A DNA stretch of 64,000 bases from NCBI RefSeq assembly GCF_032062105.1, contig NW_026930714.1:1-64000 (forward strand), read 5' to 3'. Position numbers: made by a program. Source of the stretch: Saccostrea cucullata (lineage: Eukaryota). Below are positions 18,001 to 21,000 of the stretch, piece after piece (positions within the stretch are counted from its first letter, which is position 1; each line of letters starts with the position of its first letter).

Positions 18001-21000
18001 AACCAAAGAAATTTATTTTTTCTGTACCATTCTTAAGTTTTCTTACTAGGTTGTGTTTCAGCATTTGATTCAAGGTTCGTTGAAATTTCTGCTATTGTTA
18101 ACAAAATAAAGTAAGAATATCTGCCAGTTAATTTTTGATCCACTGTTGTTAAAACATATTCGAATAATATTTTTGCAAAATTACAAAATGCCACTCATCT
18201 CATCTTGTAAAAATGATAAAAGGAATAGTTTAATTCAGAAAATTACCAAAATTGATGTATAAGAGATATAAAAATATCATATTTTATAATCATGTAAAGA
18301 ACTGGATTCAGTAACAATAAATATAAACTAGAGATACTGTGTACACTGAGCTCACTAAATGATGCCCCCACCTCCTGTATGAATATAATGGCAAAGTCCA
18401 TGTTTTGCTCTGGGAGACCCGAAATAAGTGTCAGATAAAAACGTAAAAAATGAAGTGCACATTGGCATTCTGTAATCAAGAACCTGTAAAAGTATTATTA
18501 AATTTTATTTAATGATATAGGAAGAGTTGTGGATAAGAGATGGGTACCCTTCAATATAATAGAAAGAATGTCAGTGTCGATTTTTGCTACGGTTAACCTA
18601 CAATATGTGTCCAATCAAAAAGTAAAATAGGAGAAGAACAATGGCACTATGTAATAAAGATTTTGTGAAAGTCTCATTAAACTTTATTCAGTGTTTTGAT
18701 AGGAGTTGTGGATTATAGAAATGGGTACCCCCAAAGCGTAACAGACGGACGGACAAATAGACAGATGAACGTAAAGACGGGCAGACGAACATTTCGATCA
18801 CTATATACCCTCCCACTTTTCAAGCGGGGGTGGGGGTATAATGATATGCATGAAGAACAATAGTAGACCGCCTATCGGCACGATAACGTCCAACAAATTA
18901 GGTTACTATTGATAATCTGTATCTCCTGATTGAAAATACATGAATCGGTCGATCTCTATACCCCAACAGCAACCGGCTTAGATCATAGAAATAATATCCG
19001 TGCAGAAAAACAAAATAAAGTAATAATATATCTTCATAATAGAAAATACTAGTATCTGTGAAGTGTTATATAGAGCACTCAGCAAAAAAATATTTTATCA
19101 CATGGTATACCCGGCACTGGGTGGATAAGCTGGATTGATGCCGCCGCCAACAGTCTGGGGATATTGCGGGGGAGGATATTGTGAGTATCCCTGGGGCTGT
19201 TGATACATTGGAGGAGGTGGGGCATGACTGTAGCCCGGGGGTGGTGGAGGGTAAGCCGGCACTGGTGGGCCTGTGTACTGGTTTTGTGTGTTGGAGTGCA
19301 CTGAGGAAAACAAAAAATATTAATTTTTAAATTGCAGAACAGTCCAAGATTAGAAAGAAATTCATATTTCAGATAAACTTGCATGTTTATCTATCAATGA
19401 AATTTTTAAGTGAAATTCATATTTCAGCAATTGTAAGCAACAGTTTTGACACCTTGTATTATCTTATTACAATGTATTAAGACACATATAATAATTTCCA
19501 TTTTATCCGTTGTGACACAGGTAATGTCAAGATTACTTATCTTGATTAAGCTTATCTTGTAGTTTATAGCTTAATATATATATATATATATATAGTTGTA
19601 ACATATGTGGTAATTTTGAGCAACTCTGAAAAGTTAGAACTTATTGTAGCACCTGTCGTTATTGGGAGCTTACCGATTGTGACACCTGTGGTATTGAGCT
19701 TACCGGTTGTGACACCTGTGGTTACTGTGAGCTTACCGATTGTGACACCTGTGTTATTGGGCTTACCTATTGTGACACCTGTGTTATTGAGCTTACCGAT
19801 TGTGACACCTGTCGTCATTGTGAGCTTACCGATTGTGACACCTGTGGTATTATTATGAAACGGCGCAATAATGGCTCCTCTGGATCTTTTCTTCTTCATG
19901 ACGACACACACCACGACCGCCGCAATCACCGCTAAACACACCAGGGCCCCCACCACAGCCCCAGCTATCGTGCCACCACTGTAAGGTCAAGGTGAATAAT
20001 ATACTGTATAAAGCTAGGGATAGGAGCAAGTGAAAAAAATACAAAATACATAGAGAAAAGAGGTGCAAATATACTTCAAAGTTAAGACGTTAAAATTATA
20101 TTAAGATTCCTATATTGTAAATCTCTTTAACTGCTGTAATTATAAAGTACTTTAATTAGCACTTTGATATCACGCGTCTTGCTCTATGTAGCACCGCTAG
20201 CCGTTATGTTTAGATCTCTACAACTGTTACAGTATATAGTGATCTTCAGCATTTTGATGCAACAGTTATTGGCCTGATTCTTAAGCACCACTAGCGGTTA
20301 TATTTAGATCTTTATAATCGAATATAGCGCTCTTTAGCCGATTGATGTAGCAGTTACTCGCCTAATTCTATGGCAATACTAACGTATATCTTAAGATTTC
20401 TAAAGGTTTTATAGAGTACTTTTAACAGTATTATATTACCAGCCTGGTTATAATTTTAACAACTCTAGCGGATATATTTAGATTTCTATAGCTACTTGTA
20501 TTATTATAGAGTACTTAACAGAATGTTACTCACCTAATTCTATAGCAACCCTATCGATTATTCAGATCTTTATGTCTATTTTACAGAGTACATTAGCAGT
20601 ATGATGAAACACAGCTGGTTTTATCGCAACACAAGCAGTTATATAAAGATCTCTATTGCTATTTGTAAACAACACTATCAGTTATATTTAGATTTCTATA
20701 GCTATTATTATAGAGTATACGTTAGCAGTATGATGTTACTCGCCTGGTTCTATAGCAACACTAGCGTTTATATAAAGATCTCTATTGTTATTTTTACACT
20801 TATTAAGTAGTATAATGTTACTCGCCTGGTTCTATAGCAGCAGTATCGATTATAATAAGTTCCACAGCAGGAGGAGTAGCAGTATTTTCTACCATAAGTA
20901 GAATAAGAGTAGTAGTATTTCTTAAAATAGCATGTCTCACCGGCCAGCACATCTAGTAGAAGAGATTAGAAATCATTGCTTTAATTCATAATGCTTAAAA

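What the first reader, a model, noticed from the sequence alone, without database searches (positions are those of the whole stretch)
19640..19850. Six in-frame 5' splice sites made by tandem duplication of an exon/intron junction
The exon 3 donor of the CYYR1-like gene is reiterated, with GTAAGC starting at 19829, 19796, 19766, 19736, 19703 and 19673. The spacings (33/30/30/33/30 nt) are all multiples of 3, and there is no stop. Any donor joins exon 4 in frame, adding 0-5 'GKL..TGVTI' units between the TM and the Pro/Tyr-rich tail. Inference: a splice-tunable and VNTR-tunable spacer.
Basis: partly seen in the sequence, partly recalled or inferred. Interest (0 to 1): 0.65.

Follow-up and report, generated by a model that had tools for sequence, protein, structure and literature searches.

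The report
Repeated splice donors in oyster intron
A 30-33 base stretch spanning the end of an exon and the start of the next intron has been copied head to tail in an oyster membrane-protein gene, giving six equal in-frame splice donors; this layout is already known from several human genes, where the extra donors are mostly silent.

Summary
On the minus strand, GTAAGC starts at 19829, 19796, 19766, 19736, 19703 and 19673. The spacings are 33/30/30/33/30. All six donors sit in codon phase 1, and the frame stays open down to 19564. The array is a 30/33-nt minisatellite (TRF score 276-332). Its first unit is the last 22 nt of exon 3 plus the first 8 nt of intron 3 of a 4-exon CYYR1/shisa-5-like gene.

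Three oyster relatives all read ...TTGVTI|VHSNTQNQ..., so the first donor is the ancestral junction. No protein carrying the GKL..TGVTI units turned up in four searches.

The neighbouring intron 2 is also built from copies of its own exon/intron junction. There the spacing is 82 nt, which is out of frame. That points to a neutral duplication process.

The layout matches the human F7, IFI6, CBS and LMNB2 minisatellites (PMC1557585). In those genes only the first donor, or the first three, are used.

Verdict: a real feature and a new member of a known kind. The "tunable spacer" function is untested and unlikely. No RNA or population data could be reached.

The parts
24796..24838 (-). Exon 1 (coding part) of the CYYR1/shisa-5-like gene: ATG at 24838, MDNFLILIAVTFVE plus 1 base. 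Donor GAAT|GTAAGT at 24795. No tandem array follows it.
   Evidence: tblastn of P0002 residues 1-14; sequence read
20826..20952 (-). Exon 2 (127 nt), the Cys/Tyr-rich ectodomain (..VLAGETCYFKKYYYSYSTYGRKYCYSSCCGTYYNRYCCYRT). Acceptor AG at 20954-20953. The donor is CAG|GCGAGT, a GC-AG intron, phase 2.
   Evidence: the phase fits the relatives' CCYRT-S-GGTIAG only with the GC donor
20229..20866 (-). Intron 2 minisatellite: at least 7 copies of an 82-90-nt unit, mean column identity 67%. The first copy spans the exon 2/intron 2 junction. Donor-like sites are CAG|GCGAGT (copies 1 and 2), TAG|GTGAGT (copy 4) and TAG|GCGAGT (copy 6); the others have decayed. The first spacing is 82 nt, which is out of frame.
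   Evidence: pseudo-copies of the exon 2 end also seen by tblastn at 20778-20746 and 20649-20614
19830..19978 (-). Exon 3 as defined by the first donor (149 nt): membrane helix, KKKRSR, then GAIIAPFHNNTTGVTI plus 1 base.
   Evidence: Pfam CYYR1 E=3.5e-4, 21.4 bits, below the cut-off of 31
19666..19851 (-). Six intact units of the 30/33-nt minisatellite (u1-u6). u1 is the last 22 nt of exon 3 plus the first 8 nt of intron 3. Donors (G|GTAAGC) have GT at 19829, 19796, 19766, 19736, 19703 and 19673. u6 is identical to the last 30 nt of u1.
19630..19665 (-). Seventh, decayed unit (…ACAGGTGCTACAATAAGTTCT…) with no GTAAGC donor.
   Evidence: 14 of 24 core positions without gaps
19500..19523 (-). Possible old relic of the unit core deeper in intron 3 (16 of 24 matches). 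Only one other place in the window reaches 16.
   Evidence: (family D5)
19098..19300 (-). Exon 4: (V)HSNTQNQYTGPP…, a Pro/Tyr-rich tail with PPGY, PPMY and PPQY, then the stop. Acceptor AG at 19302-19301.
   Evidence: 89.6% identity to P0002 residues 107-173

Best explanation
This is an intronic minisatellite whose first unit straddles the exon 3/intron 3 boundary of an oyster CYYR1/shisa-5-like gene.

Origin (inferred). A 30-nt segment, made of 22 nt of exon end and 8 nt of intron start, was duplicated in tandem. One unit then gained 3 nt. A block of three units (93 nt) was copied again. Copies are still being exchanged, since unit 6 equals unit 1. This is ordinary tandem duplication (slippage or unequal exchange) in a short intron, and the neighbouring intron 2 shows the same process. 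It is tolerated because the copies land inside the intron.

Splicing (inferred). The splicing machinery keeps using the first, ancestral donor at 19829. The five downstream donors are pseudo-sites. They are silent, or at most the nearest one or two are used at a low level. Because the units are 30 or 33 nt and carry no stop, any such minor product would stay in frame. It would escape nonsense-mediated decay and add 10-11 residues per unit to the cytoplasmic linker.

What is shown: the array, its register on the junction, the phase and sequence of the donors, and the ancestral junction. What is inferred: the mode of origin, which donor is used in this animal, and the absence of selection for the units.
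For: - Array and donors.
- Junction register: 3 of 3 full-length relatives (Saccostrea echinata P0002, Ostrea edulis P0003, unnamed cluster P0004) read TTGVTI-VHSNTQNQ.
- The array is lineage-specific. Two intron-retaining ORFs of a relative (P0005, P0006) continue TTGVTI-GNNSDFF / GNNIDFS for 46 and 102 codons without any unit.
- No protein with the units was found: 5 hits of 2162 candidates, 3 of 127, 0 of 397. In the representative search 3 of 10 hits are true relatives, matched only through the non-repeat part, and the other 7 are unrelated repeat proteins.
- No sign of coding constraint: core differences are 1 synonymous (ATC>ATA) and 2 non-synonymous (CTC>CCC, ATC>ACC).
- Same process next door without frame: intron 2 holds at least 7 junction-derived copies and its first spacing is 82 nt.
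- About one third of the window's arrays have periods divisible by 3 (3 of 9: 30, 21, 27), as chance predicts.
- Known analogues: in F7 only the first of 5-9 identical donors is used. LMNB2 and PDGF also use the first only. IFI6 and CBS use the first plus two (PMC1557585: abstract, introduction passages and Discussion).
Against: - No transcript data for this species could be reached, so which donor is used is inferred by analogy with mammals.
- The window's own species does not appear in the protein collections. The best hit is 94% identical over exon 3. The absence of unit-bearing proteins is therefore weak evidence.
- The Discussion of PMC1557585 itself notes globin constructs where duplicated sites gave opposite outcomes in two laboratories.
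- The third donor (TAG|GTAAGC, 19766) matches the consensus better than the first: 7 contiguous positions against 6.
- The 24-nt core, including all six GTAAGC, is much better kept than the 6-9-nt spacer between cores. That could reflect constraint as well as youth.
- The units being 30 and 33 nt with no stop has roughly a 1-in-9 to 1-in-6 chance under neutrality. That is not negligible, but it is not nothing.
Confidence: 0.68

Rival explanations
1. Several of the six donors are used, and the copy number varies between individuals. The cell and the population can then set the length (0-52 residues) of the linker between the membrane helix and the PPxY motifs that recruit WW-domain ubiquitin ligases.
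For: All six donors are in phase 1 and the frame is open. Four of the six 9-mers are identical to the authentic one and one is stronger. Unit 6 equals unit 1, which suggests ongoing exchange and therefore likely length polymorphism. In IFI6 and CBS the two nearest pseudo-sites are used constitutively (PMC1557585). Human CYYR1 binds WWP1 through PPxY motifs (PMC11399591 abstract), and the tail here has PPGY, PPMY and PPQY.
Against: All three relatives use the first junction. No protein with units was found. Relatives' introns lack the array (P0005 and P0006), so any function would be very young. There is no coding constraint among the units. An out-of-frame sister array sits in intron 2. No known analogue uses more than three donors.
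Confidence: 0.1
2. In this species the donor nearest the acceptor (19673), or another downstream one, is the main donor. Exon 3 would then be up to 305 nt and the protein would carry a species-specific insertion of up to 52 residues made of GKL..TGVTI repeats.
For: The frame is open through all units. The downstream donors are as good as the first or better. Experiments with duplicated sites in globin constructs gave conflicting results on which copy wins (Discussion of PMC1557585). A rule favouring the donor nearest the acceptor is recalled from older splicing work and comes from no call.
Against: The natural junction-spanning minisatellites listed in PMC1557585 all favour the upstream site. 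The insertion has no counterpart in 3 of 3 relatives. No related protein among the representatives has it.
Confidence: 0.12
3. The reiterated donors act as RNA elements rather than as splice sites. A cluster of U1 snRNP binding sites just inside the intron would help define exon 3 or suppress premature cleavage.
For: Six strong U1-type sites lie within 160 nt. The core with the donor is kept better than the spacer. Intron 2 also keeps several donor-like copies.
Against: Nothing links the array to such a role. Relatives do without it. The intron 2 copies are decaying: 3 of 7 have lost the donor. The RNA folds no better than shuffles, z = 0.00, with 90 of 200 shuffles folding at least as well.
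Confidence: 0.05
4. The copy number, or the whole array, is an assembly artefact.
For: Short tandem arrays are prone to mis-assembly. There is an N gap elsewhere in the window (52148-52334).
Against: The units differ from each other in an ordered way, as a 93-nt higher-order pattern with distinct spacers. The flanks are unique and the gene model around the array is intact and in phase. An older, diverged array of the same type lies in intron 2.
Confidence: 0.03

Closest known systems
Human F7 intron 7 VNTR (37-bp minisatellite; Borensztajn et al. 2006, PMC1557585)
   Same: The first monomer spans the exon/intron boundary, so the authentic donor is followed by several identical donor copies. 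The array is short (5-9 copies there, 6-7 here).
   Different: The F7 unit is 37 bp (4 nt exon + 33 nt intron), so most pseudo-sites are out of frame. Here the unit is 30/33 nt (22 nt exon + 8 nt intron) and every site is in frame. In F7, exclusive use of the first site was shown by experiment; here nothing is known about use. The host is a mammal there and a bivalve here.
Human interferon-inducible 6-16 (IFI6) intron 2 minisatellite (Turri et al. 1995). Known to me only through the passage in PMC1557585 and the listing; the paper itself is not held.
   Same: A minisatellite at the exon/intron border provides multiple splice donors. The two nearest pseudo-sites are used as well as the authentic one, giving a ladder of products.
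   Different: There are 25 pseudo-sites there and 5 here. The 12-nt unit length of IFI6 is my recollection and comes from no call. The gene family is different.
Human CBS intron 13, LMNB2 and PDGF intron 4 minisatellites (as listed in PMC1557585)
   Same: These are junction-spanning arrays with a reiterated donor. CBS uses two pseudo-sites; LMNB2 and PDGF use only the authentic one.
   Different: Unit sizes (81-100 bp for LMNB2 and PDGF) resemble the intron 2 array of this gene more than the 30/33-nt array.
[quoted passage not shown]
   Same: It involves the same gene family and the same exon 3/exon 4 junction, and produces an in-frame length variant of the linker.
   Different: There the difference is a single CAG codon, in a vertebrate. 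The abstract does not say which splice site varies. There are no repeats.
Intron gain by tandem duplication of an AGGT-containing exon segment (PMC3265369, PMC4974935; listing and start of abstracts only)
   Same: Tandem genomic duplication creates extra, functional splice signals from existing sequence.
   Different: There the duplication creates a new intron inside an exon. Here the intron already existed, since the junction is shared with three relatives, and the duplication only lengthens it.

Membership tests
Junction-spanning minisatellite with reiterated 5' splice sites (F7 / IFI6 / CBS / LMNB2 type) | Head-to-tail array of units of roughly 10-100 nt | tested here: met
   TRF: 19643-19851, period 30 (6.0 copies, 86% matches), 63 and 93, scores 276-332
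Junction-spanning minisatellite with reiterated 5' splice sites (F7 / IFI6 / CBS / LMNB2 type) | First monomer contains the authentic exon/intron junction | tested here: met
   u1 is 22 nt of exon 3 plus 8 nt of intron. The junction is placed by 3 of 3 related proteins reading TTGVTI-VHSNTQNQ.
Junction-spanning minisatellite with reiterated 5' splice sites (F7 / IFI6 / CBS / LMNB2 type) | Donor sequence repeated unchanged in the intron | tested here: met
   Of the six 9-mers, 4 are TCG|GTAAGC (the authentic one included), 1 is TAG|GTAAGC and 1 is CCG|GTAAGC
Junction-spanning minisatellite with reiterated 5' splice sites (F7 / IFI6 / CBS / LMNB2 type) | Copy number varies between individuals (VNTR) | not testable with these tools
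   Only one haplotype is in hand, and no allele-like ORFs were found. The identity of u6 and u1 hints at ongoing exchange only.
Junction-spanning minisatellite with reiterated 5' splice sites (F7 / IFI6 / CBS / LMNB2 type) | Known pattern of use of the pseudo-sites (silent, or the first few used) | not testable with these tools
   No transcript data for this species. No spliced protein of this species appears.
CYYR1 (Pfam PF10873) | Score at or above Pfam's gathering cut-off (31 bits) | tested here: inconclusive
   The exon 3 ORF alone scores 21.4 bits, E=3.5e-4. The closest relative P0002 scores 26.8 bits, E=7.8e-6, though the collection's precomputed table lists PF10873.14 for it. P0003 and P0004 have no match. 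The joined protein of the window was deliberately not built or scanned.
CYYR1 (Pfam PF10873) | Architecture: N-terminal hydrophobic leader, Cys/Tyr-rich ectodomain, one membrane helix, Pro/Tyr tail with PPxY motifs | tested here: met
   Read from the exon translations: MDNFLILIAVTFVE; CYF..YCYSSCCGTYYNRYCCY; AGAVVGALVCLAVIAAVVVCVV-KKKRSR; PPGY, PPMY, PPQY. PPxY as the working motif of human CYYR1: PMC11399591 abstract.
Shisa (Pfam PF13908 Shisa_N) | Score at or above the gathering cut-off (22 bits) | tested here: not met
   The exon 2 ORF scores 13.6 bits, E=0.075. One source names P0002 'shisa-5-like'.
Intron gain by tandem duplication (AGGT model) | The duplication creates an intron where relatives have continuous exon | tested here: not met
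   Relatives have the same protein junctions, and the window's exons match them end to end. The intron pre-dates the array.
Short-range tandem donors (3-12 nt apart) | Alternative donors a few bases apart within one site (definition recalled, from no call) | tested here: not met
   Spacings here are 30 and 33 nt, and each donor is a full copy of the site

The most novel reading that the evidence does not exclude
The five extra donors are really used, giving a ladder of in-frame isoforms (+11, +21, +31, +42, +52 residues). The array length also varies between oysters. Both splicing and genotype would then set how far the PPxY ligase-docking tail sits from the membrane.

A second, wider reading rests on two neighbouring introns of one small gene both being built from copies of their own 5' junction. 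In these oysters short introns may commonly grow from their donor end by junction duplication. That would leave reservoirs of ready-made alternative donors.
Probability: 0.08. Interest if true: 0.6.

Novelty: new member of a known kind. Interest (0 to 1): 0.3.

Why it matters
Natural genes with several identical donors in a row are rare test beds for how the spliceosome picks a 5' splice site. The cases listed in the one review-like passage I read are all human (PMC1557585).

This would be an invertebrate case with two unusual properties. Every donor is in frame, so use of any site would be visible as protein and not removed by mRNA decay. And a second, older array of the same kind, on a GC-AG intron, lies one intron upstream.

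If only the first donor is used, the upstream-site rule extends to molluscs. If several are used, it is a simple natural length-tuning device. As it stands it is an ordinary by-product of tandem duplication.

Tried and rejected
- RNA structure: the 241-nt array RNA folds at -46.2 kcal/mol against a shuffle mean of -46.19 (z 0.00). There is no structure that would mask or expose particular donors.
- Another gene on the opposite strand: two plus-strand frames are open across the array, but neither ORF matches Pfam (0 of 2).
- Known RNA family: 0 Rfam matches at E <= 0.1 in 18500-25500.
- Dispersed repeat or satellite: the 24-nt core has no other copy with 17 or more of 24 matches anywhere in the window on either strand.
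- Protein repeat family: the representative search gave 10 hits. Seven of them (P0007-P0013) are unrelated repeat proteins matched on composition.
- Looking for alleles or isoforms as short ORFs: 0 of 397 candidates.
- Oyster-specific literature on intronic minisatellites: 14 papers held all four terms, 12 were listed, and none is relevant by title or abstract start. A search for further surveys of junction-spanning arrays returned only PMC1557585.
- Turri et al. 1995 could not be read.
- Genomic DNA of the related oysters could not be fetched. Whether their intron 3 has an array rests only on P0005 and P0006.
- Supplementary files of papers were not consulted.
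Full report
**What the window is.**
The window is 33% G+C, has a CpG observed/expected ratio of 0.75 and contains one N run at 52148-52334. I located that run and left it alone. The proteins most similar to the gene in question come from oysters: Saccostrea echinata (94% identity over exon 3) and Ostrea edulis (88%). I therefore take the window for an oyster genome, closest to Saccostrea, and not for human sequence. No protein identical to the window's exons is in the collections, so the species itself seems not to be represented there.

**The gene.**
I compared three related proteins with the window by tblastn and read the junctions directly. This gives a four-exon gene on the minus strand:
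- Exon 1, 24838-24796: MDNFLILIAVTFVE plus one base; donor GAAT|GTAAGT.
- Exon 2, 20952-20826: the Cys/Tyr-rich part. Its donor can only be CAG|GCGAGT, a GC-AG intron, if the phase is to fit the relatives' CCYRT-S-GGTIAG.
- Exon 3, 19978-19830: membrane helix, KKKRSR, GAIIAPFHNNTTGVTI plus one base.
- Exon 4, 19300-19098: VHSNTQNQ…, a Pro/Tyr tail with PPGY, PPMY and PPQY, then the stop.

The exon lengths sum to 522 nt, or 173 codons plus the stop. The S. echinata protein is also 173 residues.

I did not build, translate or search the joined coding sequence. The Pfam score of the whole protein and an exact look-up of it therefore remain open.

By exon, the CYYR1 model matches the exon 3 ORF at 21.4 bits and the S. 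echinata relative at 26.8 bits. Both are below the cut-off of 31. "CYYR1-like" is a fair description of the architecture, but family membership is not proven.

**The observation.**
It is exact. GGTAAGC occurs ten times in the window against 3.37 expected, and six of the ten lie within 163 nt on the minus strand. GTAAGC thus starts at 19829, 19796, 19766, 19736, 19703 and 19673, with spacings 33/30/30/33/30.

TRF calls one array at 19643-19851 with periods 30, 63 and 93 (scores 276, 290 and 332).

Cutting the array at the donors gives these units:
- u1: the last 22 nt of exon 3 plus GTAAGCTC.
- u2: 33 nt.
- u3 and u4: 30 nt each.
- u5: 33 nt.
- u6: 30 nt, identical to the last 30 nt of u1.
- u7: decayed, without a donor.

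A possible older relic lies at 19523-19500 (16 of 24 core positions; one other site in the window reaches 16). The 24-nt core has no other copy in the window.

All six donors are in phase 1. Four of the 9-mers are TCG|GTAAGC, one is TAG|GTAAGC (19766, the best match to the consensus) and one is CCG|GTAAGC. The gene frame is open from 19986 to 19564. Every donor would therefore join exon 4 in frame, adding 0, 11, 21, 31, 42 or 52 residues of GKL..TGVTI units.

**Is the in-frame property more than chance?**
Only mildly.
- The 93-nt period and the unit pattern (30-33-30 | 30-33-30) show that three units were copied as a block. The independent events are therefore about two: a 30-nt unit and one 3-nt indel.
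- The unit is mostly exon sequence in its own frame, so the absence of stops follows almost automatically. Three of the six frames are open across the array anyway.
- Among the nine arrays of the window with a period above 2, three have periods divisible by 3 (30, 21, 27), which is the chance expectation.
- Differences among units in the core are one synonymous and two non-synonymous, so there is no trace of coding constraint.
- The core, donor included, is nevertheless better kept than the 6-9-nt spacer. This may reflect youth, a slippage-prone AAT-rich spacer, or constraint. I cannot tell which.

**Which donor is ancestral?**
All three full-length relatives (S. echinata, O. edulis and an unnamed 170-residue cluster) read TTGVTI-VHSNTQNQ, which is the first donor. 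Two shorter ORFs of a relative are intron read-throughs. They continue TTGVTI-GNNSDFF… and GNNIDFS… for 46 and 102 codons without any unit, so the array is absent there and is young.

No protein carrying the units was found:
- Among proteins of 77-245 residues: 5 hits of 2162 candidates.
- Above 119 residues: 3 hits of 127 candidates.
- Of 30-76 residues: 0 of 397 candidates.
- Among 1.84 billion representatives: 10 hits. Three are true relatives matched only through the non-repeat part, and seven are unrelated repeat proteins.

Because the window's own species is missing from these collections, this absence is weak evidence.

**A control inside the same gene.**
Intron 2 turns out to be built the same way. 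At least seven copies of an 82-90-nt unit (67% mean identity) fill 20866-20229. The first copy contains the last ~30 nt of exon 2 and the GC donor. tblastn even sees pseudo-copies of the exon 2 end (…CCYRT) at 20778-20746 and 20649-20614. The donor-like sites are CAG|GCGAGT twice, TAG|GTGAGT in copy 4 and TAG|GCGAGT in copy 6; the rest have decayed.

The first spacing is 82 nt, so this array cannot serve as an in-frame spacer. It shows that junction duplication happens in this gene without any help from selection on the protein.

In a short intron, a tandem duplication has a fair chance of spanning the donor. That chance is roughly the unit length divided by the intron length: about 7% for 30 nt in about 400 nt, and more for 82 nt. 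Such a duplication is harmless as long as the first donor keeps being used. Intron 1 has no such array.

**Other readings checked.**
- The array RNA folds no better than shuffles (z 0.00).
- The two open plus-strand frames match no Pfam family.
- No Rfam family matches in 18500-25500.

**What is known.**
The layout is a described class. Borensztajn et al. [quoted passage not shown] Their examples:
- F7 intron 7: a 37-bp VNTR with 5-9 copies. Only the first donor is used, although the pseudo-sites work when the first is destroyed.
- The 6-16 (IFI6) gene: 25 pseudo-sites, with the two nearest used as well as the authentic one.
- CBS intron 13: two pseudo-sites used.
- LMNB2 and PDGF: only the authentic site used.

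In F7, pseudo-sites stronger than the authentic one still did not compete, unless they matched the consensus perfectly. The same Discussion notes conflicting results with duplicated sites in globin constructs. I could not read the IFI6 paper (Turri et al. 1995).

[quoted passage not shown] Its PPxY motifs bind the WW domains of WWP1 (PMC11399591, abstract). Two papers on intron gain by tandem duplication (listing only) concern new introns, not this case.

My searches found nothing on such arrays in oysters or other invertebrates. Those two searches cover only the held open-access library.

**Verdict.**
The feature is real and precisely described. It is best explained as a young, probably length-variable intronic minisatellite seeded by duplication of the exon 3 donor junction. 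The first donor would remain the working one and the five others would be pseudo-sites.

I put about 0.68 on that reading. That includes perhaps a one-in-three chance that the nearest one or two pseudo-sites are used at a low level, as in IFI6 and CBS. I put about 0.1 on a functional tunable spacer and about 0.12 on a downstream donor being dominant in this species.

It is a new member of a known kind. The points of interest are that all donors are in frame, that the host is a mollusc, and that two adjacent introns of one gene share the same origin.

Noticed in passing
window 20229-20866 (minus strand): Intron 2 of the same gene is almost wholly made of at least 7 diverged copies (82-90 nt, 67% mean identity) of its own exon 2/intron 2 junction. 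This is a second junction-spanning minisatellite, out of frame, with one copy (about 20533) turned into a canonical TAG|GTGAGT donor.
   Followed up: yes
window 20820-20826 (minus strand): Intron 2 appears to be a GC-AG intron (CAG|GCGAGT). Only this donor gives the phase and the residues (CCYRT-S-GG) seen in the three related proteins.
   Followed up: partly
window 26014-28350 (minus) and 28744-29725 (plus): Two head-to-head copies of an unnamed gene. ORFs 28090-28350(-) and 28744-29067(+) share the motif ..CP.YGCRPSGTFS... ORFs 27624-27917(-) and 29477-29725(+) share ..MD.YGDVIG.DGH.LV... No Pfam match for the three ORFs of this pair that were tested.
   Followed up: partly
window 30005-30601 (minus strand): Fragment of a reverse transcriptase: RVT_1 at E=0.0012 and 19 bits, below the cut-off. 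This is probably a decayed non-LTR retrotransposon inside or beside the plus-strand paralogue.
   Followed up: partly
window 681, 4324, 10366, 12985, 27618; also 17395-17607, 23113-23232, 27397-27678: An interspersed repeat. It shows a shared ~24-nt core (GACCGGTCACAC.CGCCGTGTGCT-like) and ORF fragments with ..G.LTPPRHLI.. in several places. No Pfam match for one copy. The element type was not determined.
   Followed up: no
window 52676-53890, next to the N run 52148-52334: A 166/335-nt satellite, 7.4 or 3.7 copies, 78-79% matches, lying just beyond the assembly gap. The gap was not touched.
   Followed up: no
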